A stretch of DNA of 64,000 nt from an uncultured Candidatus Saccharibacteria bacterium (GCA_964350165.1 CAYGJA010000002.1:119822-183821); one strand, 5' to 3'; positions 25,437 through 39,275 are shown, counted from the stretch's first letter. The notes: generated by a model from the sequence alone, not told the origin. Made by a program: numbers and translations.

Positions 25437-25438
25437 CT

Positions 25439-28400
25439 ATGGCAAGAAATACTCTGTCATTCAGGAAAAGTTTGGTGAACTTTTTTTTGCTTGTGACAAT
25501 GTTTGCTCCTTTGGTTTTTTCGGGCTGGCCGCAATCGGGGCTGTTTAATCCCAGTGTTCAGGAAGTACGAGCTGCTGTGGGAGACATCGGTCATTGGGAA
25601 GACTCGATTGGGGGGCAAATTCCAGGGCTGACTTTTGCCGGCTTTGACTTCGACAATGAAATAAGAAATGACGGTATCTATACCAAGCCCAATGATTCGA
25701 CCATTGAGCTCGATGAGGCTGGCGATTATCTGATTATTGCCACAATTCGGGGGACTGATAATTCGAATGGCCGCTATAATCCGCAGGGCCGAGTAGCGCT
25801 GACGTCGGGTTCTGGTACGTTGTATACGTCATACAATACTGGTTATTCTCGTGACAACAGTGAAAACGAGTCCTGGGTCCGAGCCGTAGGGGTGGTAATT
25901 GGCGCTTCAGCCAATGCGCAGATACAGATTCAACGACGCCGCGATACTGACGCACCGACTTCGGGTAGCGTACCAGGTCAATCAGACGTCCAGGTGGTGC
26001 GAATTAATCCCACTAATTACGGTGTCTATGCTATTGGCGGAACGACTGATACATATGCGGGAAGTGCACCATACGGAGCCAACACACCTGATACCGTTGA
26101 TATTACGGCCGTGACGGCCGAGTCTAGCACTTCGGCCATCGAAGGCAACACCACCACCGAGACCGTGACGGTAAAAGGTGATAATAAGCGCTATCTGGTT
26201 GCTTGGTCGGTGTCGGGGGATACGGGGGGAGTTCGTACCCAGCGTATCGGGCATTTGGAATATGATGGCGTCGATGATTTGGCAACCCGGTCATATTGCT
26301 ACCAGAGGCAGGCTTCGGATGAGTACTGTGGCTTGGGGGCAATTGATATTATTGAGACTTCTACCGCAGACAGGGCTATTCAGGTTGAAGTATATATCGG
26401 AGATGGAGCTGCATCTGACCAGGGTGGGGCAGAAAATACGGGGTCTTGGGTTGCCGACGGTAATGGACAGCTGGTGATTCTGGAGCTTCCGGATTCATTA
26501 GAAGTGTTTCGCGCTCATGATTCGATTGGTTTGCAGGATATTACTAGCGCAGTGACATTGAATGCTGCTCGGGATGTTGATTTTAACGATGCCAATAGCT
26601 TTACCAAGGCTAGCAATACAGCGATTGACGTCACCTACCCAGCCGATATTTTTGCTTTTGGGAATGTCTGGACGGCTCGAAACAATGTTGGCTCTGGATT
26701 ACGCCTAACTGCTTATGGTCGAATTACTATTAATGGTGTGGAACAATCAGTGGGTGAACACGGGAATTATACTCGTGGAGACCAATCCACTTCCGGAACC
26801 TTTGGAGGAGTATTTTCTCCCGCTGGAATATTCACTATCGGAACAGCTGGTCATGATATTGGGATCAATATGGATCCTTTGGCTGGCACAGAAGGTGGAG
26901 GGGCCGACCGTACTCAGGCCGGCACGGTGGGATTTTTTGCTCTCAATCTAGACACTTTGTTGCCTCCGGCTTTTGAGCAATCTGCTTATCGATTTTTTGC
27001 CAATACTAACTCTGCCGATGTTGGGTCAGCTCTGGCTGTTCAGGATTCGGCTGCTACGCTGGCAACTACTGGTGATGCTTTTCGGTTGCGAACTTTGATC
27101 CATGTATCAGATGCTCCACTGCGACCGAGTTTGCAGGATTTCAAGCTCCAATTTGCGGAAAAAAGTGGAACCTGTGATACCAGCTTTACCGGAGAAAGCT
27201 ATGCTGACGTCACTGGCGCGACGGTAATTGCTTTTAATAATAACGCCACTCCAGCTGATGGTGACAACTTGACTGCCAATGCCAGTGACCCAACTCATGG
27301 CGGGCATACGATTGTTAACCAAGACTACGAAGAAGCGAATAACTTTACCAATAGTGTGGCTGCCATCCCGGCTGGTCAAGACGGTAAATGGGATTTTTCG
27401 TTGATTGATAATGGGGCTACAGCCAATACTTCATATTGTTTTCGCATTGTGGAAGCAGATAACACTCAACTAAGTACTTACACCGTAATACCAGAAGTAA
27501 TTACGGCTTCAGCTGGGGGCTCTCCTGATATTGCTCAGATTCACTATCGCTGGCGTGGTGATACTGAGGGCGAAACAGGAACTACTTGGGCTTTTGCCGA
27601 AGATGCAACCTCAACCAGTCTAGTCAAGCAAACGCCCACAAGACTTCGTTTTGCAATCAGTAACGAAGGGACAGCTGATACGGGTAATATTGAATACCAG
27701 CTAGAGGTGTCGGGTGCGAATCCGAGTTCGTGCTCGGTGGCTAGTTATCAGGCCGTCACTGCTGGGGGAGAGACTCATTGGGACATGGCGACTAGCACTA
27801 ATTTTACGAATTCTGATCCTACCACAAATAATTCAGGGATTACTGACGAAAACACTACGTTCGTAGCGGGTGATATTATGGATACTTCAGATACAACGGG
27901 AGTTATTGATCTGACCTCGACTCAGCACACTCAGGTAGAGTTTTCGATAGAGGCAAACACCAGTGCCACAAACGGTGGAACGTATTGTTTTCGTTTGACT
28001 AACGCCGGATCAACTACTAATTTTTCTTATGATCAATATGCTGCGGCGACTCTGGAAACATTGCCTGACGTAACAGTGTCTACTGAGGGTACGCAGGTGG
28101 CAACGGTCGATGCCGGTTCCTCTGGTAATAATATGGGTGCCAAGTTTGTAATTACTGATACTGCTGGGAATTCTCCAAATGTTACAACGCTGGTCTTTGC
28201 TGAAAACGGAACCATTGATAGTGTTAATGATATTTCTTCCATTTTTGTGCGAGCCGAAAGTGATACCAGTGATCCATACGATTGTGCTAGTGAATCTTAT
28301 GATGGGACCGAATATTCCTATGGGCCGGCCGATATTGATGGTTTTAACAGTGCTGGAGGAACGGCTTCTTTTACTGATTCTTTTTCTATTAGTCCAACTT

Positions 28401-31400
28401 CGGCTATGTGTGTGTATGTTCGTCTGGGGATTGGAGTGGGTGCTTCGCCAGGCGAAACCATTGAACTTCAAATTACCGATCCATCGACCGATGTTGTTGT
28501 TTCTTCTGGAACCGTAGGCCCCAGTACTCCTGTTTTGTTGCCGGGAACCACGGTGGTTTCAGGGCTTCCTGATCTAGATCAAATTCGTTATCGATGGTTG
28601 TACGACAATGAAGACGAAAATGAAGCAGACGTTATTGCGGCCGAAAATGCAACCAATACGGCGGTTATCAAAAACGATATTCAAAGGTTGCGTTTTATGG
28701 TGTCCAATGAGGGTTCGGGCACCTCTGGTAGCACCACTTATCGGCTCGAAGTATCCGAAGCCAACCCCTCGTCTTGTTCGGCTGGTACCTACGAACGAGT
28801 GTCTACTGATGCTGATTGGGATTTGGGAAATTCTTTAGAATTTAGTGATGGCGCGGCCACGGCGGACTCCGGCAGTTATCTTACCAATGAAAACACCACC
28901 TTTGTGGCGGGTGAACAAAAAGATACCAGTGATACTACTAGCGGTATCACGCTTACATCCACCGAATTCACTGAAATAGAATATGCCATCAAGCCAACTA
29001 CAGCTGCTACTGATGGTGGAAATTATTGTTTTCGCCTCACTAATGCTGGTACGGCTCTAGATACCTATACCCAGTATGCTATTGCTGCGGTCAAATCTAC
29101 AGCTACTAATATATATCGTTCGGTGGGTACAAATCAATCAAATTTAAACGTTGCTGGTGCAACAATTACAATTGCCACGAGTACGGTTACTTTTTCAACT
29201 GACCCAACTAGTGGCTCCGGAAATATTGGGGTGGGAGATGTTATTCAGTATCAAGATGGAGGTGCGGGTCAGTATTATTTGGCTTTTATTACAGGCAGAA
29301 CTTCTGCAACCGAATATACTGTGACAAATTATTCCGGTGGACTTCCGCATAAGGTTGCTGCCGGTGAGACGGCTCTGGTATATCGTGTCTACGACCACGC
29401 TGCGGGATGGGAGGCAAACACTCTCAGCCAAGAAAATGCAAACATTGATGCAACTGTTGATGATTACGTTATTTTGCCTTCAACTAATCTGACTGATTAC
29501 AACTATGTAATGAAGGTTCCACTCTATAAAGATGGGGTAGATAATGAATACCTCAGTCTTGCTGGTTGGACGACTAGTGCCAGCAATTATATTCACCTCT
29601 TTACTCCGATTGCCTCTAGTGAGGTCGGCACAAGTCAGCGGCACACGGGAATAGCGGGGACGGGGTATGTATATGCGAGAACAGGGGCGCCGGGCGCTGG
29701 CACCAGCAGTCACATTAACGTAACTGTGCCTTTTGTTCGTATCGAAGGAATAGAATTGGACGGTTCTTTTTTCCGAGGAGGAGAAAATGTGAACGGTATC
29801 TTGTTTAATGCAGCTGGGTCTTCTGATTTGAGACTCACCAATTCTATTCTTCACGATATATCGGGAGACGATTGCTGTGACGAGGACGCCAGCCTCGTGA
29901 ACGCAGTTGCGGTGCAAAGCTCGGCTGATACCGTAAGAATTGCCAATAATATTATTTACGACATCTCGAGCTCTTCTGCTCATGCCAGTAGTGATGTTGC
30001 AGGAATCAAATTGAGTAATAGTGCCGGGAATGTTTACGTCTACAGCAACACTATTTTTGACATCACTCAGACGAGTGTTTCTGGTGGTGATGCGCGTGGA
30101 ATATATGAGACATCTATTTCTTCTTATCTTCTCAAGAATAATTATGTGGGTGGAACAGTTGCCTCTAATGGTTCTTCTGTGGAATCAGACTATGTTGGTG
30201 ATTTTGCTTCAGGTTCAACCAATAATGTCTCTTCGGATGCGACAGCGGGAGACGACGTTGATCAGGTAAACGAAATAACGGGACAGAATAGTTATGCAAA
30301 TTACTTTAGAGATGTGGACCCAGGGGAGGAGGACTTGCGATTAAAATCTAATTCGAATACTTTATGGGGATCGTACGGCGCAGACTTGGATGTTGACGGG
30401 AATATTGCCATTACCACCGACATCGAAGGAGAGGCTCGCGATGGTACTAATCCGGATATTGGCGCAGACGAGGCCGTGAACGTGGCTGATTTGCAACAAT
30501 TGCACTATCGTTGGGGCACGGATGATGGTCGGGAAAGCTGGTATAGCTCGAGCTGGCAACATCGAGTTAGTGTCAATATTCCTGGTACAAATCTCGTTGC
30601 TCCAATGGCCGATTTCCCCATCTACGTCGATCTCTCCGATCTCCCCACCGCTTTCTTCGAAACCGTCCAAACAGACGGAGACGATATTCGAATCACCGAC
30701 GGAGACGGAGTAACCGAACTTCCTTTTGAACTTGTCTCTATAAATACCGGCACCCAAACAGGAGAACTTCACTTCAAAGCAGATTTGTTCACTGGAACAG
30801 TTAACAATTTCTACATCTACTACGGCAACGCATCTGCTACTGGCTACGCCACCACCGACACGTATGGTGCGGAGAATGTGTGGACCAATGGATATTCGGG
30901 AGTATGGCACTTAGGTGAAACAGTAACAGACGAACAAACTTCCGGAGTTCACTACGACTCCACTTCCAATAGTCTGGACGGCTCCCAAAACAACAACGCC
31001 ACCCTAGCTGCCGGAAAACTAGGACAAGCCCAAAATTTCGATGGTACCAGTGACGCTATCACCATCGCAGACAACGATGCCCTCACTCCTGTTGGTGACG
31101 CCACTTATTCATACTGGGCATACCTAGAAACCCTCAATACCAGCAACGACGGTGTTTTCTTATACAAAATGCACTCGGTTGCTCCTTGGTACAGCTACAT
31201 TATTGAATTCGATGGTAATGGTACAGATCACCAAATAGCCAACTATCTAGACACTAACGAATCCAATAATCAAGCCGGCTCCACGGCTACCACCTCGGCT
31301 GGTGCCTGGTTCTCTGTGAATGCCGTCCGCGAGAGTGACACCTGGAAGTATTACCTCAACTCAGCCGCCACTGGTTGGACCAGTGCTCTGACCACCGACA

Positions 31401-33577
31401 TGTTCAACAGTGATGGCAACCTGGTGGTTGGTGCTGGATATGGAGGCACCCAGAACGAAATCGATGGCTACATGGACGAATTGAGGATTAGTAGCGTGGC
31501 TCGAACGGCCGATTGGATTGCGGCGGAGTACAATAATCAGAATACAGCGAATGGGTTTTATGTGGTTGGATTTCACGAGACCGATTGGGCTGATTGGGGG
31601 TATCGAACAAGTATCATCATTGATGCTGATCGGGTAACCTCTACACTTATTAATTTCCCGGTGTATGTCGATTTGTCAGATTTACCAAGTGGTTTTTGGA
31701 CGAATGTTCAGGCCGATGGTGATGATATTCGTATTACCAATGCCGACGGTGAGGAAATGCCAATCGAATTAGTCTCTATTACGGACAGTGGCACCACAGG
31801 TACAGGGGAACTGCATTTCAAGGCAGATTCTCTCTCGTCTTTGGTCGACACTATTTTCTACATCTACTACGGCAACGCATCTGCTACTGGCTACGCCACC
31901 ACCAACACGTATGGTGCGGAGAATGTGTGGACTGATTATTACGCAGTGTTTCATTTGAATGAAAATGTAAACACAGCCTCTGGTGGGTATGCCAATAGTG
32001 CTGGTGGTGGTGATGGTACCGGAACAGGCATGGCAGAAGCAGCTGTTGCTGGAGCGCTGGGCGGCGGACAAGCCCAGGCTTTTGCTGCTGGCGCAGATTA
32101 TATTAGTTTTACGGAGACTTTAACTAGTGAGGATACCGTAACCATGAGTGCTTGGGCGTATCCAACAGAAACACAGCCTGCATATGTAGGGATTTTGGAA
32201 AGTAGAACTGATAATTTCGTTGGTCTGCTTGATAGTGGCGCCGGAACTGATATGTTGACTACTGCTTGGAATGGTGGCGCTGGAGAATATGATGCAAATA
32301 CTGGCTTAACCTGGTCACAAAATGAATGGCAGTTTTTTGCGGGCGTGGTAGACGATAATACGACCGTACGAACCTATCTCAATGACCAATTTTTCGATGT
32401 GGTCAGTGCGAGCAACACAAGATCTCCGGCTCTTTGGTATATAGGTGTTGACCCGATTTCAGCCGGCACTAGAGATTGGCGTGGTTATCTGGACGAAGTT
32501 CGTATTGCAAAAGAAGTGAGAAGCGCGGATTGGTTGCAGGCTGAATATCTAAACCAAGGAACACCCGAAGCTTTTTACACGGTTGGCGCCCACACGGTGG
32601 TGACACAAACAAATTCCTGGCTAGAAAATGAAGACACTTTGGCGGAAATAACGATCGGGGATATTGCTCACCTGCGATTATTGGTTTCGAATGAAGGGTC
32701 TGCACCATCGGGAGATGTGCAGTATCTATTGCAGGTTTCCGAACCAAATCCAGCTAGCTGTGCTACTGCCAGCTCGTGGGATAGCGTGACGGTAGATAGC
32801 CACTGGAATCTGGCCGATACTGCTTTTTATGAAGATATGGACAATTCGTATGATGTCGCCAGTGGTCTTACGAACGAAAATACAGCCTTTGTCAAAGGTT
32901 GGATAATGGAAAGCAGTGATACTTCGAGTAAGGTCGATCTAACTACTACGGAATTCACCGAACTCAAATACAGCTTGACCCCCACCGCTGACGCAACTAC
33001 CGGGGCAACCTATTGTTTTCGAGTGATTGATAATGGAGTAACTACGAATTTTACTCATAGTGTGTATGGTCAAGCTTCTGTTGCCGGGGGTGCCCAAACC
33101 ATAAGTTTTAGCATCTCGGATTCAACTATTGGTTTCGGGACACTTACCTCTGCCTTTACTCGTTTTGCAACGGGGGACACCCTAGGCACCACCACCACAT
33201 CAAGCGCACACACACTAACTGCTTCTACTAATGCCTCTAGTGGATACTCAATAATTGTTGAGGGTGCAACACTTACAGACGGCTCATACACTATTGATGC
33301 TATTGGCGGAGTGGCCACAACTTCGCAGTCAGGAATAGAGCAGTTTGGGGTTCGGTATACCGCTAGTGGAGGTAGCGGTAGTGTCGCTAGCCCTTATAAT
33401 GGTGCCACGACTTATGCTTATGATGGAGTATCGAATGCTGATGTTGTTGCTAGTTTGGGGGCCGGGGACGGAGTCGCAACTATTTACTCTGCTTACTATA
33501 TTGCAAACATTGCCGATCTTACAGAAGGTGGGACTTACTCGACACAAATTCAGTACACCATAACTGCAAACTACTAA
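25439..33577 (+). CDS. Giant (2712 aa) cell-surface protein with repeated about-350-aa modules, two DUF2341-like plus LamG-like lectin modules, a beta-helix region and a C-terminal domain shared with the next gene
   Basis: It has a signal/anchor N-terminus. There are four copies of a module beginning IHYRWRGD. There are two copies of ADFPIYVDLSDLP...DGDDIRITD...YIYYGNASATGY (DUF2341-like). Each is followed by ...DELRISSVARTADWIAAEYNNQ / DEVRIAKEVRSADWLQAEYLNQ (LamG-like jellyroll ending). A beta-helix region follows (NSILHDISGDD, ANNIIYDIS, SNTIFDIT). Confidence 0.6.
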   Translation: MARNTLSFRKSLVNFFLLVTMFAPLVFSGWPQSGLFNPSVQEVRAAVGDIGHWEDSIGGQIPGLTFAGFDFDNEIRNDGIYTKPNDSTIELDEAGDYLIIATIRGTDNSNGRYNPQGRVALTSGSGTLYTSYNTGYSRDNSENESWVRAVGVVIGASANAQIQIQRRRDTDAPTSGSVPGQSDVQVVRINPTNYGVYAIGGTTDTYAGSAPYGANTPDTVDITAVTAESSTSAIEGNTTTETVTVKGDNKRYLVAWSVSGDTGGVRTQRIGHLEYDGVDDLATRSYCYQRQASDEYCGLGAIDIIETSTADRAIQVEVYIGDGAASDQGGAENTGSWVADGNGQLVILELPDSLEVFRAHDSIGLQDITSAVTLNAARDVDFNDANSFTKASNTAIDVTYPADIFAFGNVWTARNNVGSGLRLTAYGRITINGVEQSVGEHGNYTRGDQSTSGTFGGVFSPAGIFTIGTAGHDIGINMDPLAGTEGGGADRTQAGTVGFFALNLDTLLPPAFEQSAYRFFANTNSADVGSALAVQDSAATLATTGDAFRLRTLIHVSDAPLRPSLQDFKLQFAEKSGTCDTSFTGESYADVTGATVIAFNNNATPADGDNLTANASDPTHGGHTIVNQDYEEANNFTNSVAAIPAGQDGKWDFSLIDNGATANTSYCFRIVEADNTQLSTYTVIPEVITASAGGSPDIAQIHYRWRGDTEGETGTTWAFAEDATSTSLVKQTPTRLRFAISNEGTADTGNIEYQLEVSGANPSSCSVASYQAVTAGGETHWDMATSTNFTNSDPTTNNSGITDENTTFVAGDIMDTSDTTGVIDLTSTQHTQVEFSIEANTSATNGGTYCFRLTNAGSTTNFSYDQYAAATLETLPDVTVSTEGTQVATVDAGSSGNNMGAKFVITDTAGNSPNVTTLVFAENGTIDSVNDISSIFVRAESDTSDPYDCASESYDGTEYSYGPADIDGFNSAGGTASFTDSFSISPTSAMCVYVRLGIGVGASPGETIELQITDPSTDVVVSSGTVGPSTPVLLPGTTVVSGLPDLDQIRYRWLYDNEDENEADVIAAENATNTAVIKNDIQRLRFMVSNEGSGTSGSTTYRLEVSEANPSSCSAGTYERVSTDADWDLGNSLEFSDGAATADSGSYLTNENTTFVAGEQKDTSDTTSGITLTSTEFTEIEYAIKPTTAATDGGNYCFRLTNAGTALDTYTQYAIAAVKSTATNIYRSVGTNQSNLNVAGATITIATSTVTFSTDPTSGSGNIGVGDVIQYQDGGAGQYYLAFITGRTSATEYTVTNYSGGLPHKVAAGETALVYRVYDHAAGWEANTLSQENANIDATVDDYVILPSTNLTDYNYVMKVPLYKDGVDNEYLSLAGWTTSASNYIHLFTPIASSEVGTSQRHTGIAGTGYVYARTGAPGAGTSSHINVTVPFVRIEGIELDGSFFRGGENVNGILFNAAGSSDLRLTNSILHDISGDDCCDEDASLVNAVAVQSSADTVRIANNIIYDISSSSAHASSDVAGIKLSNSAGNVYVYSNTIFDITQTSVSGGDARGIYETSISSYLLKNNYVGGTVASNGSSVESDYVGDFASGSTNNVSSDATAGDDVDQVNEITGQNSYANYFRDVDPGEEDLRLKSNSNTLWGSYGADLDVDGNIAITTDIEGEARDGTNPDIGADEAVNVADLQQLHYRWGTDDGRESWYSSSWQHRVSVNIPGTNLVAPMADFPIYVDLSDLPTAFFETVQTDGDDIRITDGDGVTELPFELVSINTGTQTGELHFKADLFTGTVNNFYIYYGNASATGYATTDTYGAENVWTNGYSGVWHLGETVTDEQTSGVHYDSTSNSLDGSQNNNATLAAGKLGQAQNFDGTSDAITIADNDALTPVGDATYSYWAYLETLNTSNDGVFLYKMHSVAPWYSYIIEFDGNGTDHQIANYLDTNESNNQAGSTATTSAGAWFSVNAVRESDTWKYYLNSAATGWTSALTTDMFNSDGNLVVGAGYGGTQNEIDGYMDELRISSVARTADWIAAEYNNQNTANGFYVVGFHETDWADWGYRTSIIIDADRVTSTLINFPVYVDLSDLPSGFWTNVQADGDDIRITNADGEEMPIELVSITDSGTTGTGELHFKADSLSSLVDTIFYIYYGNASATGYATTNTYGAENVWTDYYAVFHLNENVNTASGGYANSAGGGDGTGTGMAEAAVAGALGGGQAQAFAAGADYISFTETLTSEDTVTMSAWAYPTETQPAYVGILESRTDNFVGLLDSGAGTDMLTTAWNGGAGEYDANTGLTWSQNEWQFFAGVVDDNTTVRTYLNDQFFDVVSASNTRSPALWYIGVDPISAGTRDWRGYLDEVRIAKEVRSADWLQAEYLNQGTPEAFYTVGAHTVVTQTNSWLENEDTLAEITIGDIAHLRLLVSNEGSAPSGDVQYLLQVSEPNPASCATASSWDSVTVDSHWNLADTAFYEDMDNSYDVASGLTNENTAFVKGWIMESSDTSSKVDLTTTEFTELKYSLTPTADATTGATYCFRVIDNGVTTNFTHSVYGQASVAGGAQTISFSISDSTIGFGTLTSAFTRFATGDTLGTTTTSSAHTLTASTNASSGYSIIVEGATLTDGSYTIDAIGGVATTSQSGIEQFGVRYTASGGSGSVASPYNGATTYAYDGVSNADVVASLGAGDGVATIYSAYYIANIADLTEGGTYSTQIQYTITANY
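30811..30886 (+). repeat. Intragenic direct repeat copy 1 (about 75 nt, near-identical to 31858-31931)
   Basis: The sequence ctacatctactacggcaacgcatctgctactggctacgccaccacc(g/a)acacgtatggtgcggagaatgtgtggac appears twice, 1047 nt apart. Confidence 0.85.
31858..31931 (+). repeat. Intragenic direct repeat copy 2
   Basis: See copy 1. It is embedded in a diverged about-1 kb tandem duplication, 30541-31560 versus 31585-32590. Confidence 0.85.
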
Positions 33578-33580
33578 GCT

Positions 33581-33607
33581 TATTCACAGTAATTGAATAG
33601 TTTTTTT
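33581..33607 (+). terminator. Rho-independent terminator after the giant gene (TATTCA-cagtaat-TGAATA, T7)
   Basis: It was read directly and lies immediately after the TAA stop at 33575-33577. Confidence 0.65.
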
Positions 33608-33635
33608 GAGAAAGACTAACTATAGAGGTTATAAT
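33606..33635 (+). promoter_or_regulatory. Candidate sigma70 promoter (-35 TTGAGA, 17-18 nt spacer, -10 TATAAT) for the downstream surface-protein genes
   Basis: The hexamers were read directly, about 40 nt upstream of the ATG at 33677. Confidence 0.4.
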
Positions 33636-33676
33636 GGGGCCATGTGTTTACGCGCACATCTCTTATTCGGAATAGC

Positions 33677-34726
33677 AAAATTATAATGACCAAATATATT
33701 AAAAAAATCACAGCGATTGGTCTGGTTGTTGCTTCGATTGTGGCAATGACACCTCGGCCAGCTTTTGCGGCTGCTTTGACAGGCCTGTCTGACAACATGT
33801 CTAGCCAAAAGATAGGAACAGCCTCTAATCACACGATTGCATTTGTGACTCCTTCTGGGGTTGGTGCTGGAGAAACCATAACCGTAACTTTTCCATCTGG
33901 TTTCACCATTGGTTCAGTTGATAATACTGACATTGACGTTACAGGGAGCACTGCGGGGGAATTAACTTTGGGGGCTACTGCTTCGGCTGGTACTTGGGGA
34001 GCTGCTTTCTCTAGTCAGACGTTGACCATTACTTCTGGAACGGGCACCATCGCTCCTGGAGAAACGGTAACCATCGAAATCGGTACGCATGCCACAGCTG
34101 GCGCAACGGGAGATCAACAAATCACCAACCATGCTTCTGCTTCTACGTATTCGATTACGATAGCGGGCACCTTTGGTGACACTGGTTCTATCCTCATTCC
34201 TATTCTAAATGACGACCAAGTCAATATTACAGCCGAAGTTGGTCAGACCCTTACATTCTCTATTTCTGACACTACGATTGGTTTTGGGACGCTTACTTCT
34301 GGCAATGCGCGTTATGCCAGTGGTGATGCTTTGGGAACCACTACTACTGCTGCTCCCGCTCATAACTTGATTGTTGGAACAAATGCTTCTAGTGGTTACA
34401 ACGTTACTTACGAAGGCGCTACTCTTACTTCGGGATCAGACACCATTACCGCGGCTACGATTTCTGGCGATGCCAATGGTACCCCTGGTACTGAGCAGTT
34501 TGCTATTTCCTATGATACGGACGGAGACGCAACTATTGCATCTGGTTATGAACAAGCCAGTGACAACTACAATTTCGTAGTCAGTACCGCCACCACTTTT
34601 GCTTCCGAGACCTCAGCTTCAGCTAATGAGACCATTGGTGCTTACTACATTGCAAACATCGCCACCCTCACAGAGGCTGGTTCGTACAGCACAACCCTTA
34701 CTTACACCGCTACTGCTAACTACTAA
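33677..34726 (+). CDS. Secreted protein whose C-terminal half is homologous to the C-terminus of the upstream giant protein
   Basis: It has a signal peptide (MTKYIKKITAIGLVVASIVAMTPRPAFAA). Its C-terminal half (about 160 aa, FSISDTTIGFGTLTS...YYIANIATLTEAGSYSTTLTYTATANY) aligns with the giant's C-terminal 160 aa (FSISDSTIGFGTLTS...YYIANIADLTEGGTYSTQIQYTITANY). Confidence 0.55.
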   Translation, partial: KIIMTKYIKKITAIGLVVASIVAMTPRPAFAAALTGLSDNMSSQKIGTASNHTIAFVTPSGVGAGETITVTFPSGFTIGSVDNTDIDVTGSTAGELTLGATASAGTWGAAFSSQTLTITSGTGTIAPGETVTIEIGTHATAGATGDQQITNHASASTYSITIAGTFGDTGSILIPILNDDQVNITAEVGQTLTFSISDTTIGFGTLTSGNARYASGDALGTTTTAAPAHNLIVGTNASSGYNVTYEGATLTSGSDTITAATISGDANGTPGTEQFAISYDTDGDATIASGYEQASDNYNFVVSTATTFASETSASANETIGAYYIANIATLTEAGSYSTTLTYTATANY

Positions 34727-34772
34727 TGCAGGTATTATTGCGGTCAAAGGATGGCAATAGTACAATATCGTT

Positions 34773-35795
34773 ATGTTTAAACTAAGTCTCGCCAAATGGG
34801 TCCTCCTATCTGGAATGTTTGCCGTGTGTTTGCTTGGATGGAATCAGGCCCAAGCCTTAACGATTGGACCAGCCAAAGTAGAGATAGAGGTAGACGCCGG
34901 CAATGTCGTGCGAGACAAAATGACTCTTATTAATGATGAGGAGCGAGAGGTGACGTATTACTCACTGGCAGAGCTCTTTGAAGCTCAAGGCGAAGGGGGG
35001 ACTCCTAATTTTGTGGCTTCCGAAACCGGGCTATCGTCTTGGATAGAGACCGTAGATAAAATCACTCTGCAACCTAACGAAACCGTTGAGGTTCCTTATA
35101 CAATTCGAGTGCCGGTTGACGCTGATCCGGGGGGGCACTTTGCGGCTCTTTTTTGGACGACCCTTGCCCCTGATGCTGGCCAAGATGGCGGGCAAGTTAT
35201 GCTTGGTTCAAAAATCGGCATGCTTATCCTGCTTCGCGTTAACGGTGAAGTAGAAGAGGGTGGTGGTGTGTTGGAATTTTCTACTCTTGGAGACAAAAAG
35301 TTGTTTACGTCGCTACCTATCAAATTTTTCTATCGTTTTCAGAATGACGGCGGAGATAGATTGCGTCCTATTGGAGACATTACAGTTCGAAACATATTTG
35401 GTGGAAAGGCCTCTGTTTTGAATGCTAATCCAACCGAAGGTAATATTTTGCCGGGCAGTGTTCGTAAGTACGAGATCCTCTGGAGTGAAAAAACAAAAGA
35501 AGCTAATTATATTCATACGGAAAAACAAGACGAATCCAAAGGCTATTTTGCTGCTGTAAAATCTCAGTGGTCTAACTTTTTGTTCGGATACTACTCAGCT
35601 CATATTGCAATTGCTTATGGCGAAGAAGATTTGGTAGATAACGAAAAATATTCTTTTTTTATAATTCCTTGGCAGCTGCTAAGCTTAGTCTTCAGTATTC
35701 TAGTATTGGTTGGTTTTGGTGGAAGAACCCTGTTGGTGCGCTACAACCGCATGATTATTGCGCAGGCCAAAAAAGGAGCAAGTCGTAAAAAATAA
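34773..35795 (+). CDS. Cell-surface protein with a signal peptide and a C-terminal TM anchor plus basic tail (CscA/DUF916-like architecture)
   Basis: It has a signal peptide (LLSGMFAVCLLGWNQAQA) and a C-terminus (LSLVFSILVLVGFGGRTLLV) followed by the basic tail QAKKGASRKK. Confidence 0.4.
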   Translation: MFKLSLAKWVLLSGMFAVCLLGWNQAQALTIGPAKVEIEVDAGNVVRDKMTLINDEEREVTYYSLAELFEAQGEGGTPNFVASETGLSSWIETVDKITLQPNETVEVPYTIRVPVDADPGGHFAALFWTTLAPDAGQDGGQVMLGSKIGMLILLRVNGEVEEGGGVLEFSTLGDKKLFTSLPIKFFYRFQNDGGDRLRPIGDITVRNIFGGKASVLNANPTEGNILPGSVRKYEILWSEKTKEANYIHTEKQDESKGYFAAVKSQWSNFLFGYYSAHIAIAYGEEDLVDNEKYSFFIIPWQLLSLVFSILVLVGFGGRTLLVRYNRMIIAQAKKGASRKK

Positions 35796-35802
35796 AAATT
35801 AT

Positions 35803-36270
35803 ATGAGGTCTTTTTCGCTATGGTGGCTTCAAAAATTGCTATTACTGGCACTTATCTTTTTTGCGTTCACAGCTGTTGGTGTTGTGCGGGCGGGTACCAT
35901 TGTTGATTCGGGGGATGTTATTATCACAGCTCAGGTTGGAGTCATTAATCCCGGTGGTGGTGGTGCCACTGGTGATGATGGTGACACTGGTGGAGGAGGG
36001 GGAGGAATTACTGGAAGTGTTGGGTTTATTATTTTCCCTAAAATTATCGAAACACTCAAACCTTTTCCCGACATTGTTTTTGGCCCTGTTCCAAAATTTT
36101 GCTCGCGAAGAGCTGACTTAAATTGTGACGGAGCTGTCAATATTATTGACTTCTCAATCCTTATTTACTGGTTTGATCGTTTGCCAGTTCCAGAGCGGGT
36201 CGATCTAAATCGTGACGGAAAGGTAGATATTGCTGATTTCAGCGTAATGGCTTTTTATTGGACAAATTAA
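35803..36270 (+). CDS. Dockerin-type (duplicated Ca-binding loop) domain protein with a Gly-rich linker
   Basis: The C-terminus has two 22-residue segments, DLNCDGAVNIIDFSILIYWF and DLNRDGKVDIADFSVMAFYW, matching the dockerin repeat pattern D.N.DG.VN..D. It has an N-terminal signal/TM. Confidence 0.6.
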   Translation: MRSFSLWWLQKLLLLALIFFAFTAVGVVRAGTIVDSGDVIITAQVGVINPGGGGATGDDGDTGGGGGGITGSVGFIIFPKIIETLKPFPDIVFGPVPKFCSRRADLNCDGAVNIIDFSILIYWFDRLPVPERVDLNRDGKVDIADFSVMAFYWTN

Positions 36271-36274
36271 GAAT

Positions 36275-37255
36275 ATGAAAACCTTTGTAACGCTAAAAAA
36301 TAATAATAAGGTCTTAATACTAGTTTGTGCTGTGTTTTTTTTGATTTTCCCAACGACGGCTTATGGCTCTAGCGAAGAAATTAACCTAGAAATCAAATCT
36401 ACTGTTTCTGAGGTCGGCGTTGGACAAGATTTGGTGGTAAGTGTTTTTGTGCAAAATCCATCCGCTCGACCAATCAATGCGATAGACACAACGCTCCTCA
36501 TTCCAAAAAATTATTTTGAAATCAAGGAGCTTTGGCTCGGTGATTCTGTAGTACCGCTTTGGCTAGAAGACCCCGAAATAAAAGAAACAGAATCAGCTTG
36601 GCTTGTTCCTTTGTCTGGGGTTATACCTGGTGGAACCACGATAGATGACGCGGAGATTGTTCGTGTCGTATTAACGTCACAGTCTCTTTTGGGTGCCGCT
36701 TCCATCAGACTACTGTCTCCCAAGATTTTTTTACATAACCGAACTGCTGATGTTTTAGAATTGCAAACGATATATGCGGAGATAAATGTGGCGACTCTTG
36801 AGGATGCCGGCCTTATTCAAGAAATTACTGCGATTGATAAGATTCCTCCAGAGCCTTTTGTTCCGATTGTTGCAAGTGATCCCGCTTTGTATGAGGGTGA
36901 TTATTTTCTTATGTTTCAGACAATAGACAGGCAGTCCGGGGTCAGCCACTTTGAATTAATTGAAAGTGATATTTATTATGAAGAAGATGTTTTGATTCAG
37001 GATGAGAATCTTTGGTGGAAACGAGTGGAGAATCCTTATCAATTAGTTGATCAATCTTTGTCTAGTTATATCTATATTAAGGCTGTCGATCGACACGGCA
37101 ATGCTCGAGTGGTGGTTATTCCGCCCACTAATAATCTGAAAAAAAACACAGCATACCCTATAATGAAAGGAGTAATTACTCTGGTCGCCTTATTTGGTTT
37201 ATTGTTCGTTTGGAAAAAAAAGACACAGCATGTGGAAAAGAATGAAGATGAATAG
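36275..37255 (+). CDS. Cohesin-like domain surface protein with a C-terminal TM anchor
   Basis: It has a signal peptide. Its N-terminal domain (LEIKSTVSEVGVGQDLVVSVFVQNPSARPINAIDTTLLIPKNYFEIKELWLGDSV) is cohesin-like. Its C-terminus (VITLVALFGLLFVWKKK) is a TM anchor. Confidence 0.45.
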   Translation: MKTFVTLKNNNKVLILVCAVFFLIFPTTAYGSSEEINLEIKSTVSEVGVGQDLVVSVFVQNPSARPINAIDTTLLIPKNYFEIKELWLGDSVVPLWLEDPEIKETESAWLVPLSGVIPGGTTIDDAEIVRVVLTSQSLLGAASIRLLSPKIFLHNRTADVLELQTIYAEINVATLEDAGLIQEITAIDKIPPEPFVPIVASDPALYEGDYFLMFQTIDRQSGVSHFELIESDIYYEEDVLIQDENLWWKRVENPYQLVDQSLSSYIYIKAVDRHGNARVVVIPPTNNLKKNTAYPIMKGVITLVALFGLLFVWKKKTQHVEKNEDE

Positions 37256-39275
37256 AACAACCCTTGTCCTTTTTCTACTGGCATCAGTTTTTTTTCTGTT
37301 GCCTTATTTTGCCAAAGCGGCGACACTTGAAATAAGTCCACAATCTGGAGAGTTCCCGGTGGGGAGCACCTTTACCGCCAAGGTATACATAAATACCGAA
37401 GGAGAAGAAATAAACGCTCTCGATGTTTCGATTGATTTCCCAGCCGACAAGATACAGCTTGTTTCCCCAAACACCTCTTTGTCTGTGGTTGACGTATGGG
37501 CTAGTCAGCCAAAGTTTAACAATAATACTGGGAGCATTAGTTTTCAGGGAGGTATTCCAAACGGCCTCAGTACTTCGCGGGGGCTGATTAGTGAATTAAC
37601 TTTTCGCGTAAAATCTACTGGGCGAGCAGCTATTATTTTTGATAGTTCGAGTAATGTGTATCTTAATGACGGAGAAGCTACTCCTGCTTCTACTAATTTT
37701 CAAAATAGCCTGTTAACACTAACCTTGCCACCACCAGCGGGCCCAATTGTCTCGACAAGTCAACATCGACAAGGAGTTTGGAGTAAAGACAATAATATTT
37801 TTTTTGAATGGTCGGGGGAATATGAGGGTTATAGTTTGGTCCTGGATCGTAGTCCGGTTACCGTTCCTGACAATGTTGTTGATACCACAGATAATTCGAT
37901 TGCTTACAGAGATTTGGTCGATGGTGTTCATTTTTTTCATATTAAAGCCCTGCGGGGTGGTGTGTGGGGAGGGGTAACTCATTATGAGGTTAATATTGAT
38001 GCCACCAGTCCTGCCTTGTTTGATATTGAATTTTTACCCTCTGCTCGAACCTCAGCCCTTCGGCCGACGATTTCTTTTTTAACTTCGGATAGAAACTCAG
38101 GTATTAATTTTTACGAGATCAGCATCATTCCTTTGTCGGGTAGAGTTGCCGACGGCAGTCAATATGGTTTTATCGAAGCGACCAGCCCGTATATTCCAGA
38201 GAGACTTGAGCCAGGCTCTTATGATGTTATTGTTCGCGCTTATGACAAAGCCGGAAATGTCACTGAGGTAAAACAAAAATTGAGAATTGTGCAAGGTTTT
38301 ATCAGTTTGATTTCTCGTGAGGGGGTTGTGATTCGCGATGTTGCCACCGTGCCCTGGTTTGTTTTGTGGATACTCCTCCTTTTGCTTGTAGCGGCAATTG
38401 CTCGAGAGATTTATATTGCAAGAAAATTAGAGCGTGTGTATCAAGAACACAAAAAAGACAAGGAAGATCCAAAAAAAGTTAGTGAGGCACTCAAAGAACT
38501 AAAGGCATATCAGAAGAAATACGGACATCTCGTGATATTTTTTGCGATAACTGTTTCTGTGCTGACTTTCTTTGATTTCAATTCGGCTCATGCTCAAGAG
38601 ATGGACTCTTCTCAGATGGCGACACCAATAATCACCAGTTGGTCTGAAACGGTCACCAATGATGAAATTTTTTACGTTCGTGGCTATTCTTCGCGAGCAG
38701 CTGAAGCTACAGTGCTTTACTTGCAAGACAGAAATACCGGATCTGTTCAGACTTTTGAAATTGACATTAGCGAAGGCGGAGACTGGTTTTATCGACATGG
38801 TACTTTTTTGCGACCAGGCGACTATGGAATCTGGGTCCAAGCCAGATTTGGCGATGAGTTATCCGCCCCAAGCTCTGAACGGATTGTTAGGGTAAGTAAA
38901 GAAGCTTTATCCTTCGGTCTGTCTAGGCTTAGTTTGGGGGCAGTGTATTTGATTATTACGGTGCTCCTGATTTTGCTTCTTTTCTTTTTTGCCTGGTACG
39001 CGACTCGCATAAAAAGAAAAGCGAGGTTAGGTTATGAGCGATATTTGGAAGAAATAAAAGAAGCAGAAGAATCGGTGCGTCGAGGTTTTGCCATTCTTCG
39101 TCGCGACCTGCATCGTGAACTCAAGAGCCTTCGAGCTCAGATTGAAAATCACACCATTACCCCCGAGGAGTTGATGGAAAAAGAACAGTTACTGTTGGAT
39201 GACTTGCGGCACATAGAACAAAAGATTGGTAAGGAAGTTTGGGATATAGAGATTGAGGCTGAAAAAAACAAATAA
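37230..39275 (+). CDS. Cohesin-like domain protein with Ig/FN3-like middle domains, two TM segments and a C-terminal cytoplasmic coiled coil
   Basis: Its N-terminus LEISPQSGEFPVGSTFTAKVYINTEGEEINALDVSIDFPADKIQLVSPNTS...SISFQGGIPNG...LISELTFRVKSTGRAAIIF matches the cohesin pattern strongly. It has TM helices (VPWFVLWILLLLLVAAIA, LGAVYLIITVLLILLLFFFAWY). Its C-terminus is charged and helical. Confidence 0.55.
   Translation: MWKRMKMNRTTLVLFLLASVFFLLPYFAKAATLEISPQSGEFPVGSTFTAKVYINTEGEEINALDVSIDFPADKIQLVSPNTSLSVVDVWASQPKFNNNTGSISFQGGIPNGLSTSRGLISELTFRVKSTGRAAIIFDSSSNVYLNDGEATPASTNFQNSLLTLTLPPPAGPIVSTSQHRQGVWSKDNNIFFEWSGEYEGYSLVLDRSPVTVPDNVVDTTDNSIAYRDLVDGVHFFHIKALRGGVWGGVTHYEVNIDATSPALFDIEFLPSARTSALRPTISFLTSDRNSGINFYEISIIPLSGRVADGSQYGFIEATSPYIPERLEPGSYDVIVRAYDKAGNVTEVKQKLRIVQGFISLISREGVVIRDVATVPWFVLWILLLLLVAAIAREIYIARKLERVYQEHKKDKEDPKKVSEALKELKAYQKKYGHLVIFFAITVSVLTFFDFNSAHAQEMDSSQMATPIITSWSETVTNDEIFYVRGYSSRAAEATVLYLQDRNTGSVQTFEIDISEGGDWFYRHGTFLRPGDYGIWVQARFGDELSAPSSERIVRVSKEALSFGLSRLSLGAVYLIITVLLILLLFFFAWYATRIKRKARLGYERYLEEIKEAEESVRRGFAILRRDLHRELKSLRAQIENHTITPEELMEKEQLLLDDLRHIEQKIGKEVWDIEIEAEKNK

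What the first reader, a model, noticed from the sequence alone, without database searches (positions are those of the whole stretch)
35803..39275. Dockerin-type protein adjacent to two cohesin-like anchored proteins, a possible cohesin-dockerin surface scaffold
The gene 35803-36270 ends with two 22-residue Ca-binding segments (DLNCDGAVNIIDFSILIYWF / DLNRDGKVDIADFSVMAFYW), the canonical duplicated dockerin fold. The next two genes have N-terminal domains with the cohesin sequence pattern (…ISP.SG.F.VG.TFT..V.I.T.GEEINALD..I.F….L..VS…GSISFQGGIPNG…). Both are membrane anchored. The second has two TM helices and a cytoplasmic coiled-coil tail, which is unusual for cohesins and suggests transmembrane coupling. 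A cognate cohesin-dockerin pair encoded side by side suggests a self-assembling surface scaffold, cellulosome-like but with unknown cargo.
Basis: partly seen in the sequence, partly recalled or inferred. Interest (0 to 1): 0.7.

Follow-up and report, generated by a model that had tools for sequence, protein, structure and literature searches.

The report
Dockerin adaptor anchoring pilus to cohesins
A small secreted protein carries a copy of a pilus subunit's linking strand at one end and a dockerin plug at the other, and sits next to two membrane proteins with matching cohesin sockets, so it probably caps a newly described type of CPR-bacterial pilus and clips it to the cell membrane; the three-gene set is conserved across many Patescibacteria.

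Summary

The "cellulosome-like scaffold with unknown cargo" reading is not supported. The order dockerin protein, G4, G5 recurs in 62 of 64 evaluable Patescibacteria loci, and G4 and G5 are sometimes fused. The three upstream genes are a Pam/WxL-type donor-strand pilus set: giant lectin adhesin G0, pilin G1 and a WxLIP/PapD-like membrane chaperone G2.

The mature N-terminus of G3 (DVIITAQVG) copies the donor strand of pilin G1 (QVNITAEVG). In related loci the dockerin protein is a whole pilin whose acceptor domain is replaced by a dockerin.

Best model (about 0.6): G3 is a chain-terminating adaptor that plugs the last pilin and docks the fibre onto the G4/G5 cohesins. Binding itself is inferred, not shown. 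I found no published description. I rate it a new variant of known kinds.

The parts
25409..33577 (+). G0: giant (about 2722 aa, start codon uncertain) surface adhesin. It has two ConA-like lectin (Laminin_G_3) domains and a C-terminal Pam-pilin acceptor domain (aa about 2589-2722). It lacks the consensus donor strand. Proposed tip adhesin.
   Evidence: NF058581 CPR_Pam_pilin_C scores 64.8 bits, above the cut-off of 55. Laminin_G_3 E 8e-26. The segment before the C-terminal domain is 'vygqasvaggaq' instead of DD.V.[IV]T[AG].V.
33644..34726 (+). G1: Pam-type shaft pilin (360 aa). N-terminal beta-sandwich, linker/donor strand DDQVNITAEVGQ (aa 190-201, nt 34211-34246), and C-terminal acceptor domain (aa 205-360).
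   Evidence: NF058581 scores 66.9 bits, above the cut-off of 55. The linker motif is conserved in pilins of related loci. The best sigma-70-like site in the region, 33606-33635, lies just upstream.
34773..35795 (+). G2: membrane-anchored two-domain Ig-like chaperone of the WxLIP/PapD type (a PamC/D analogue). Signal peptide, two beta-sandwiches, C-terminal TM (aa about 293-323).
   Evidence: AF2 pLDDT 90.2. Foldseek top hits are E. faecium WxLIP 9i1y/9i25 (E 1e-10), then chaperone-usher chaperones CsuC, CfaA, Caf1M, DraB. 9 of 40 family members weakly hit PF06030 WxLIP_PGBD. TM.
35803..36270 (+). G3: 155-aa adaptor. Signal peptide (aa 1-30, cleavage VRA|GT inferred), donor-strand mimic, Gly-rich linker, Pro/hydrophobic spacer, C-terminal dockerin.
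35908..35943 (+). G3 aa 36-47, SGDVIITAQVGV: a copy of the pilin linker/donor strand, six residues after the predicted signal-peptide cleavage site.
   Evidence: It is the best non-self match in the whole six-frame window to G1's linker 15-mer, rank 1 of 53,112, although the runner-up scores 28 against 29. Its score is in the top 2.4% of ORF N-termini. The same relationship holds in L009, L036, L051, L074, L090 and L091, and inside the longer dockerin proteins of L010 and L092.
36109..36264 (+). G3 dockerin module: two Ca-binding loop-helix repeats.
   Evidence: PF00404 scores 32.4 bits, above GA 22.9. PDB dockerin 2y3n_B E 3.5e-4. Local HMM E 2e-28. It is the only dockerin in the window.
36275..37255 (+). 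G4: 326-aa membrane-anchored cohesin protein. Signal peptide, cohesin (nt 36386-36790), one Ig-like (Big_13-type) domain, C-terminal TM (aa 292-314, nt 37148-37216). It is a truncated paralogue of the N-terminal half of G5.
   Evidence: hhalign to the G5 family gives probability 100%, E 2.7e-40. The profile hits solved cohesins 5aoz_A and 5m2o_A at E 4-6e-5. TM. It is fused to G5 in P0023, P0013 and P0113.
37230..39275 (+). G5: 677-681 aa polytopic cohesin protein. Signal peptide; cohesin (nt 37314-37733); two Ig/FN3-like domains (aa 173-375); TM1 (nt 38352-38417); basic cytoplasmic loop; TM2 (nt 38526-38585); second Ig-like ectodomain (nt 38628-38897); TM3 (nt 38931-39005); conserved cytoplasmic helical tail (nt 39006-39272).

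Best explanation
The finding is the membrane-proximal half of one six-gene operon (G0-G5, 25409-39275) that builds and anchors a Pam/WxL-type donor-strand pilus.

G1 pilins polymerise by inserting their linker strand (DDQVNITAEVGQ) into the incomplete C-terminal Ig-like domain of the neighbouring subunit. The membrane-anchored WxLIP/PapD-like chaperone G2 assists this. The giant lectin-bearing G0 has the acceptor domain but no consensus donor strand, so it sits at the tip.

G3 is a minimal terminator-adaptor. After signal-peptide removal it presents a copy of the pilin donor strand (DVIITAQVG) but has no acceptor domain. It can therefore fill the groove of the last pilin and stop growth. Through a flexible Gly-rich linker, its C-terminal Ca-dependent dockerin then binds the cohesin domains displayed by the membrane proteins G4 and/or G5. 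This ties the fibre non-covalently to the cytoplasmic membrane.

Shown here: domain identities, folds, topology, synteny, fusion, strand mimicry, and the pilin-to-dockerin domain swap in relatives. Inferred: strand complementation by G3, dockerin-cohesin binding, the tip and base assignments, and any role of G5's conserved cytoplasmic tail.
For: (1) Dockerin and both cohesins are verified.

(2) Among 64 loci with at least 3 kb upstream of G5, a dockerin protein is present in 63, a G4-like protein (or fusion) in 63, and both in 62. The dockerin is C-terminal in 77 of 82. G4-G5 fusions keep a TM hairpin that leaves both cohesins outside.

(3) G0 and G1 pass NCBIfam's Pam pilin C-domain cut-off. 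G2 folds like WxLIP and chaperone-usher chaperones and has a C-terminal TM, as described for PamC/D (bioRxiv 10.64898/2026.03.03.709456).

(4) The G3 mature N-terminus is the best non-self match in the window to the G1 linker strand. The same pairing occurs in L009, L036, L051 and L074. It also appeared in three loci fetched afterwards as a test: L090 DDEVSITADVGQ / SVSVSAIVG, L091 DDEVSVTADVGQ / DTVSVTAVV, and L092.

(5) In L010, L015 and L092 the dockerin protein is a pilin-like N-terminal domain followed by a dockerin in place of the acceptor domain. L010 and L092 also keep a recognisable donor strand (DDQITVIAQVG, DDKVNVTAQV). L015's N-terminal domain is homologous to G1's (blastp 4e-7), but no matching strand was identified there.

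(6) The N-terminal class of the dockerin protein co-varies perfectly with the type of upstream genes: 38 class B loci without G2/Pam genes, 16 class A loci with them, 0 mixed, Fisher p 1.7e-11, not corrected for phylogeny.

(7) Dockerin distances correlate with G5-cohesin (r 0.37) and G4-cohesin (r 0.44) distances more than with the rest of G5 (r 0.19). Partial Mantel p<=5e-4.

(8) Functional precedents. PamR's N-terminal strand is predicted to terminate and anchor Pam pili. CscD in Firmicute WxL clusters is a tiny protein with 40-60 mature residues before an LPxTG anchor.
Against: No complex was predicted or measured, so cohesin-dockerin binding and strand insertion are inferences. PF00963 does not hit the window's own G4 or G5, and the G5 family profile finds no solved cohesin by sequence alone.

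For the window alone the strand similarity is modest: top 2.4% of background N-termini, and the runner-up 15-mer scores 28 against 29.

Most cassettes (class B, 38 loci) have no Pam pilins, so the core job of the triad is broader than anchoring this pilus.

G5 is far more conserved than a passive anchor needs, including an invariant-rich cytoplasmic tail.

Some giant adhesins in relatives keep a strand-like segment before the acceptor domain (L091 'aevtataq'), so the tip assignment is not secure.

Partial Mantel tests are liberal, and the loci are phylogenetically non-independent.
Confidence: 0.6

Rival explanations
1. General docking platform. G4/G5 form a conserved transmembrane station to which several different dockerin-bearing adaptors attach different surface appendages. 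The Pam-type pilus is only one client. G5's second ectodomain and conserved cytoplasmic coiled-coil do more than anchor, for example assembly control or signalling. This extends the best explanation rather than excluding it.
For: The triad is present with two unrelated upstream module types. L073 and L069 carry two dockerin proteins ahead of one G4-G5 pair. There are two cohesins per cassette. G5 is 40-49% identical across class-level lineages, with invariant cytoplasmic residues. There are 866 50%-identity clusters at E<=1e-30.
Against: No cytoplasmic partner or enzymatic domain was identified. The only PDB sequence hint for the tail (ATP synthase subunit b, E 0.07) is not significant. The function of the class B adaptors is unknown.
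Confidence: 0.2
2. One reading: a cellulosome-like, self-assembling scaffold that recruits dockerin-tagged enzymes or other cargo encoded elsewhere in the genome.
For: The cohesin and dockerin modules are genuine and structurally closest to type I cellulosomal and non-cellulosomal cohesins. Only 64 kb of the genome could be searched for other dockerins.
Against: There is one cohesin per protein and no scaffoldin. None of about 80 syntenic dockerin proteins showed a recognisable catalytic module when their sequences were read; their N-termini are pilin strands, pilin domains, Ig-like spacers or the 55-aa class B domain. They were not scanned against Pfam. The dockerin gene is invariably glued to the cohesin genes rather than dispersed.
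Confidence: 0.07
3. The cohesin-like and dockerin-like modules do not bind each other. The cohesin folds are structural spacers of a surface protein family. The dockerin is a Ca-binding module that contacts something else, such as cell wall, S-layer or host. The resemblance of G3's N-terminus to the pilin strand is convergent beta-strand composition.
For: No binding data exist. The window proteins miss the Pfam cohesin model. The strand match in the window alone is only moderately unusual.
Against: Near-universal adjacency. Dockerin-cohesin co-divergence. Repeated, position-specific strand mimicry in nine loci, plus whole-pilin-to-dockerin chimeras. The cohesin is the most conserved part of G5, with mean distance 0.44 against 0.54 for the rest.
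Confidence: 0.13

Closest known systems
Pam pilus of Candidatus Mycosynbacter amalyticus (PamA/B pilins, PamC/D membrane chaperones, PamT tip, PamR terminator-anchor; bioRxiv 10.64898/2026.03.03.709456)
   Same: G0 and G1 carry the Pam pilin C-domain above NCBIfam's cut-off. G2 is a two-domain PapD-like chaperone with a C-terminal TM, like PamC/D. Termination by an N-terminal strand on an anchoring protein is the same logic proposed for PamR.
   Different: No PamR-like single-chain anchor is present. The anchor is split into a soluble strand-plus-dockerin adaptor (G3) and membrane cohesin proteins (G4, G5). The preprint does not mention cohesin or dockerin. It places Pam pilins mainly in Saccharimonadia and Microgenomatia, whereas these loci are from Nomura-, Specht- and Veblenbacteria-type genomes. 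The tip here is a 2722-aa lectin adhesin, not a single-domain PamT.
Type I cohesin-dockerin pairs of cellulosomes and non-cellulosomal pairs (e.g. 6kgc, 4uyp, 1ohz, 2vn5; Archaeoglobus fulgidus 2xdh; Clostridium perfringens 2w1n/2vo8)
   Different: No scaffoldin and no enzymes. The cohesins sit on integral membrane proteins, one of them polytopic with a cytoplasmic tail. The dockerin's partner domain is a pilin donor strand. The system is proposed to anchor a fibre, not to organise catalysis.
csc / WxL clusters of Firmicutes (CscA = WxLIP DUF916-DUF3324-TM, CscB small WxL, CscC large WxL with lectin domains, CscD tiny LPxTG protein; PMC1534035, PMC10599100)
   Same: Same four-part logic. The membrane-anchored two-Ig WxLIP is G2's best structural match. 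There is a small subunit, a large subunit with N-terminal ConA-like lectin domains and the shared C-terminal domain, and a very short anchoring protein.
   Different: No Pfam WxL-domain match appeared in the scans of G0 or G1 (E<=0.001 and E<=1 respectively). G2 is below Pfam thresholds for PF06030. The short anchoring protein ends in a dockerin rather than an LPxTG sortase signal, and needs two extra cohesin genes.
PapH-type terminator/anchor subunits of chaperone-usher pili (from established knowledge of P pili)
   Same: A subunit that can donate a strand but cannot accept one, which ends polymerisation at the cell-proximal end.
   Different: PapH is a full pilin fold retained at an outer-membrane usher. 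G3 has no pilin fold at all and is proposed to be held by a cohesin-dockerin joint on the cytoplasmic membrane of a monoderm-like cell.

Membership tests
Dockerin type I (PF00404) | Score above the Pfam gathering threshold, with two tandem Ca-binding loop (D-x-N-x-D-G-x-x-x-x-x-D) plus helix segments | tested here: met
   32.4 bits against GA 22.9. Both loops are present at aa 104-115 and 133-144. Alignment over both repeats to solved dockerin 2y3n_B.
Dockerin type I (PF00404) | Ca-dependent binding to a cohesin | not testable with these tools
Only indirect support exists: synteny and co-divergence.
Cohesin (PF00963) | Sequence match of the window proteins to the Pfam model | tested here: not met
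   No PF00963 hit for G4 or G5 at E<=1.
Cohesin (PF00963) | Family-level sequence match | tested here: met
   20 of 37 G5 orthologues hit PF00963, best 2e-8. The G4 family profile hits solved cohesins at E 4e-5. G4 and G5 families align with hhalign E 2.7e-40.
Cohesin (PF00963) | Nine-stranded jelly-roll beta-sandwich superposable on solved cohesins | tested here: met
Cellulosome / scaffoldin system | Scaffoldin with multiple cohesins recruiting dockerin-tagged enzymes | tested here: not met
   One cohesin per protein. One dockerin in 64 kb. No recognisable catalytic module was seen when about 80 syntenic dockerin proteins were read; they were not Pfam-scanned.
Pam pilus system (NCBIfam NF058581 / NF058579; bioRxiv 10.64898/2026.03.03.709456) | Pilin with the Pam C-terminal truncated Ig-like acceptor domain | tested here: met
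   G1 66.9 bits and G0 64.8 bits against a cut-off of 55.
Pam pilus system (NCBIfam NF058581 / NF058579; bioRxiv 10.64898/2026.03.03.709456) | Membrane-anchored PapD/FimC-like chaperone in the operon | tested here: met
   G2 model pLDDT 90. Hits to WxLIP and to CsuC, CfaA, Caf1M and DraB. C-terminal TM.
Pam pilus system (NCBIfam NF058581 / NF058579; bioRxiv 10.64898/2026.03.03.709456) | PamT single-domain tip pilin and PamR (two FnIII plus TM) terminator | tested here: not met
   PamT model scores 21 bits against a cut-off of 240. No NCBIfam match for G2, G3 or G4. The proposed terminator here is G3 plus G4/G5.
Pam pilus system (NCBIfam NF058581 / NF058579; bioRxiv 10.64898/2026.03.03.709456) | Filament assembled by donor-strand exchange | not testable with these tools
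   Only the conserved linker motif DD.V.[IV]T[AG].V, about 8 aa before the acceptor domain, was seen.
WxL / Csc cluster | WxLIP (DUF916/PF06030 plus DUF3324) protein above threshold, and WxL-domain proteins | tested here: inconclusive
   G2 itself has no Pfam hit. 9 of 40 relatives hit PF06030 weakly, best 8e-4. The best structural match is WxLIP 9i1y/9i25. No Pfam WxL-domain match appeared for G0 or G1.

The most novel reading that the evidence does not exclude
The dockerin protein / G4 / G5 triad is a Patescibacteria-wide 'socket' for surface appendages. Interchangeable adaptors present either a pilin donor strand (class A) or a 55-aa S-x-N-F domain (class B) at one end and a common dockerin at the other. 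They plug different fibres and giant adhesins into one conserved polytopic membrane platform. The platform's invariant cytoplasmic coiled-coil couples the state of the appendage (load, host contact) to the cell interior. This would be the first cohesin-dockerin joint used as a pilus anchor, and a candidate transmembrane link in episymbiont-host attachment.
Probability: 0.2. Interest if true: 0.85.

Novelty: new variant of a known kind. Interest (0 to 1): 0.7.

Why it matters
CPR/Patescibacteria are mostly uncultured episymbionts, and their attachment to hosts is the central open question of their biology. The Pam pilus was described only in 2026, and how such fibres are fixed to a cell without outer membrane or usher is unresolved; the preprint only proposes PamR.

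This locus suggests a different and widespread solution: a pilin-derived terminator that carries a dockerin, and membrane cohesins that receive it. That gives cohesin-dockerin modules, long known outside cellulosomes but with largely unknown roles, a concrete non-catalytic function.

It also extends Pam-type pili to Paceibacteria-type lineages and ties them structurally to the WxL/Csc clusters of Firmicutes. It yields directly testable pairs of small domains: the G3 dockerin with the G4/G5 cohesins, and the G3 strand with the G1 C-terminal domain.

Tried and rejected
Direct sequence searches of G4 and G5 against PDB chains found nothing relevant. The G5 family profile also found no cohesin by sequence. 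Fold comparison was needed.

NCBIfam gave no family for G2, G3, G4, G5 or G6, nor for the small membrane proteins of class B loci.

Four full-text searches for cohesin/dockerin in CPR, Patescibacteria or pili found no description of this cassette (and 45 for the Pam preprint).

A simple regular expression for the donor strand was too strict: 3 of 25 class A N-termini. A BLOSUM score against pilin linkers was used instead.

I looked for a conserved acceptor domain at the C-termini of class B giant proteins and found only low-complexity Gly/Pro/Glu tails, so class B remains unexplained.

The weak similarity of G5's tail to ATP synthase subunit b (E 0.07) was rejected as not significant.

The promoter/terminator scan was not above shuffled expectation.

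The afdb50 fold library was unavailable. The organism name could not be recovered; the cluster look-up carries no names.


Full report
**1. What is in the sequence.**
The flagged interval holds three co-directional, tightly packed genes.
- G3, 35803-36270, 155 aa.
- G4, 36275-37255, 326 aa.
- G5, 37230-39275, 677-681 aa, overlapping the end of G4.

They are the tail of a longer + strand run: G0 25409-33577 (2722 aa), G1 33644-34726 (360 aa), G2 34773-35795 (340 aa), then G3, G4, G5. G2 and G3 are 7 nt apart, and G3 and G4 are 4 nt apart.

**2. Dockerin.**
G3 scores 32.4 bits on PF00404, above the gathering threshold of 22.9. G3 aligns over both repeats to the solved dockerin 2y3n_B, E 3.5e-4. 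It is the only dockerin found in a six-frame scan of the 64-kb window.

**3. Cohesins.**
PF00963 does not hit G4 or G5 at E<=1, and direct PDB sequence searches are empty. The domains are cohesins all the same.
- G5 belongs to a full-length family of about 680 aa, 40-49% identical across Patescibacteria.
- 20 of 37 sampled members hit PF00963 (best 2e-8), and 31 of 37 hit Big_13.
- NCBI labels several members 'cohesin domain-containing protein'.
- An AlphaFold2 model built on a 37-sequence alignment has pLDDT about 90 in the ectodomains.
- Residues 30-165 of that model match solved cohesins with Foldseek TM 0.72-0.78.

G4 is a truncated paralogue of G5. hhalign of the two families gives probability 100%, E 2.7e-40, aligning G4's cohesin and single Ig-like domain to G5's cohesin and its last Ig-like domain. 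The G4 family profile hits Ruminococcus flavefaciens cohesin structures at E 4-6e-5.

**4. Topology.**
G4 has a signal peptide and one C-terminal TM. G5 has a signal peptide and three TM segments. The order is:
- cohesin and two Ig/FN3-like domains outside;
- TM1;
- a basic loop (net +5);
- TM2, which looks like an internal signal peptide (...FNSAHA|QE);
- a second Ig-like ectodomain;
- TM3;
- about 90 aa of conserved cytoplasmic helix (EAEESVRRGFA.LRRD...).

**5. The triad is a conserved cassette.**
A pattern-limited scan of one genome per GTDB species found 177 genomes encoding a G5 relative, and 80 loci were fetched. By record title they come from Nomura-, Jorgensen-, Kaiser-, Harrison-, Lloyd-, Specht-, Brenner-, Staskawicz-, Veblen-, Vogel-, Buchanan-, Doudna-, Zambryski- and Niyogibacteria and others. 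A few TPA records carry other labels (uncultured Gammaproteobacteria, Bdellovibrionales); I read these as mis-binned, without testing that.

Among 64 loci with at least 3 kb upstream, a dockerin protein lies just upstream in 63, a G4-like protein (or a fusion) in 63, and both in 62. The dockerin is C-terminal in 77 of 82 such proteins.

In some genomes G4 and G5 are one 950-980-aa protein. The G4 TM and the G5 signal peptide are kept as a hairpin around a KKKR loop, so both cohesins stay outside.

An exhaustive HMMER search of 1.84 billion representatives finds 866 50%-identity clusters at E<=1e-30.

Dockerin divergence correlates with divergence of the G5 cohesin (r 0.37) and the G4 cohesin (r 0.44) more than with the rest of G5 (r 0.19). 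Partial Mantel p<=5e-4. This test is liberal, so it is supportive only.

**6. What lies upstream.**
G1 and the C-terminus of G0 pass NCBIfam's cut-off for the 'Pam pilus system pilin subunit' C-domain. That family comes from a 2026 preprint on Ca. Mycosynbacter amalyticus. In that work pilins polymerise by donating the linker strand between their two domains to the truncated Ig-like C-terminal domain of the neighbour. TM-anchored PapD-like chaperones (PamC/D) assist, and an N-terminal strand on the membrane protein PamR is predicted to terminate and anchor the fibre.

G2 models at pLDDT 90 as two beta-sandwiches plus a C-terminal TM. Its best PDB matches are Enterococcus faecium WxLIP (9i1y, 9i25), followed by chaperone-usher chaperones. 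Some relatives weakly hit PF06030.

G0 carries two ConA-like lectin domains. G0, G1 and G2 therefore mirror both the pam operon and the Firmicute csc/WxL clusters: a large lectin-bearing subunit, a small subunit and a membrane WxLIP.

**7. The link between the two halves.**
G1's linker strand, eight residues before its acceptor domain, reads DDQVNITAEVGQ. G3's predicted mature N-terminus reads GTIVDSGDVIITAQVGVINPGGGG.

The G3 segment is the best non-self match to the G1 linker 15-mer among 53,112 windows of the six-frame translation, although the runner-up is close at 28 against 29.

Scored against six pilin linkers from different loci, the best 12-mer in the dockerin protein's first 80 residues falls exactly at the mature N-terminus in each locus tested. 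Its background rank is 2.4% (window), 0.09% (L009), 0% (L036), 6.8% (L051) and 4.9% (L074).

As a prospective test I fetched the three closest relatives' loci. All have the same six-gene order and the same relationship:

| Locus | Pilin linker strand | Dockerin protein N-terminus |
|---|---|---|
| L090 | DDEVSITADVGQ | SGSVSVSAIVG |
| L091 | DDEVSVTADVGQ | SDTVSVTAVV |
| L092 | (see below) | (see below) |

In L092 and L010 the dockerin protein is a complete pilin-like N-terminal domain plus the donor strand (SDDKVNVTAQV in L092; DDQITVIAQVGAPGGGG in L010), followed by a spacer and a dockerin where the acceptor domain should be. In L015 the dockerin protein likewise has an N-terminal domain homologous to G1's (blastp 4e-7) ahead of Ig-like spacers and a dockerin, but I did not identify a matching strand there.

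This gives a clear series, from pilin with a dockerin in place of the acceptor domain, down to bare donor strand plus dockerin, which is G3.

Shaft pilins of about 360 aa carry the consensus DD.V.[IV]T[AG].V. The large adhesins with the acceptor domain (G0; L051 990 aa; L009 592 aa) do not.

**8. Model.**
- G0 is the tip and is acceptor only.
- G1 is the shaft and is both donor and acceptor.
- G3 is the base and is donor only. Once inserted it leaves no groove, so it ends polymerisation.
- The G3 dockerin then docks on the G4/G5 cohesins.

Functionally this is PamR split into a soluble adaptor and membrane receptors. It is also CscD (a protein of 90-140 aa with 40-60 mature residues before LPxTG) with the sortase signal replaced by a dockerin.

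The domain identities, synteny, fusion and strand mimicry are shown. Binding, strand insertion and polarity are inferred.

**9. Limits and the wider cassette.**
Only 16 of 57 classifiable loci are of this 'class A' type. In 38 'class B' loci the dockerin protein instead starts with a 55-aa domain (S-x-N-F ... GFLYFP). In those loci the upstream genes are a 1.2-3.6-kaa protein and two families of small membrane proteins. No Pam or G2 genes are present and no locus is mixed (Fisher p 1.7e-11, uncorrected). I found no acceptor-like domain in those giants.

The core role of the triad is therefore broader than Pam pili. G5's high conservation and cytoplasmic tail hint at more than passive anchoring.

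**10. Novelty.**
The Pam preprint does not mention cohesin or dockerin. Full-text searches found no description of this cassette. Public annotation stops at 'cohesin domain-containing protein' or 'hypothetical'.

I rate it a new variant of known kinds: donor-strand pili combined with cohesin-dockerin joints. Confidence is 0.95 in the observation and about 0.6 in the mechanism.

Noticed in passing
Loci L001, L005-L008, L026, L030, L042, L060, L066, L082 and others (class B cassettes): In 38 loci the dockerin protein starts with a conserved 55-aa domain of three S-x-[NS]-F strands ending in GFLYFP. It follows a 1.2-3.6-kaa surface protein with a low-complexity Gly/Pro/Glu tail. Two families of small N-terminally anchored proteins also lie upstream (motifs '...PTVATV.DPE.LKDQPFF...KVLIY' and '...YQAVFL.NGQVYFGKL...LVKLG.ELHGP'). 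None has a Pfam or NCBIfam family. Their role and the partner of the 55-aa domain are unknown.
   Followed up: partly
window 41235-43973 (+): This 912-aa protein has an N-terminus that weakly matches the class B 55-aa domain (E 7e-4, aa 30-79). That is followed by an acidic double-disulfide repeat, two Calx-beta domains, CarboxypepD_reg domains and a hydrophobic C-terminal region. A similar gene follows G5 in L090. It may be another client or relative of the same surface system.
   Followed up: partly
window 25409-35795 (G0-G2), compared with PDB 9i1y/9i25: The giant adhesin, small pilin and membrane chaperone trio parallels the Firmicute csc/WxL clusters (large lectin WxL protein, small WxL protein, WxLIP). 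G2's best structural match is WxLIP rather than a Gram-negative chaperone. This suggests that Pam pili and WxL clusters are related systems. The Pam preprint compares only with Pap/Fim.
   Followed up: partly
window 38526-38585 (G5 TM2); one search hits P0261, P0284, P0292 and others: G5's second TM looks like an internal signal peptide with an AHA cleavage motif. The database holds forms of about 400-470 aa that cover only the N-terminal half of G5. G5 may itself be a fusion of two membrane-anchored units, as G4-G5 fusions are. Some short forms may be fragments.
   Followed up: no
window 36097-36123 (G3 aa 99-107, FCSRRADLNCDG) and dockerins of related loci: A cysteine 3-7 residues before the first Ca loop pairs with a cysteine at loop position 4 in 23 of 78 syntenic dockerins. 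A second pattern (C-D-x-N-x-D-x-x-C) occurs in 6. These are probably lineage-specific disulfide clamps on the dockerin.
   Followed up: partly
window 498-2896 and 4346-7138 (+): Two proteins carry the prokaryotic N-terminal methylation (type IV pilin) motif, and a 930-aa TrwB/VirD4-like coupling ATPase lies nearby. The same genome therefore also encodes type IV pilin-like components.
   Followed up: no
window 44037-48596 (+): This 1519-aa surface protein has CBM6/CBM35, SH3, FN3 and pectate-lyase-like domains. It contains an exact internal duplication of a segment of about 90 aa (DTTPPATPTLNTSVSG...KTVTISAPGP occurs twice).
   Followed up: no
window 33606-33635 (+): The best sigma-70-like site of the region (TTGAGA-18-TATAAT, 11 of 12) lies immediately upstream of pilin gene G1. 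This fits separate high expression of the shaft pilin, although the scan as a whole is not above shuffled expectation.
   Followed up: no
L073 and L069: These two loci carry two dockerin proteins (in L073 one class B and one class A) ahead of a single G4-G5 pair. This is consistent with several adaptors sharing one pair of cohesin receptors.
   Followed up: no
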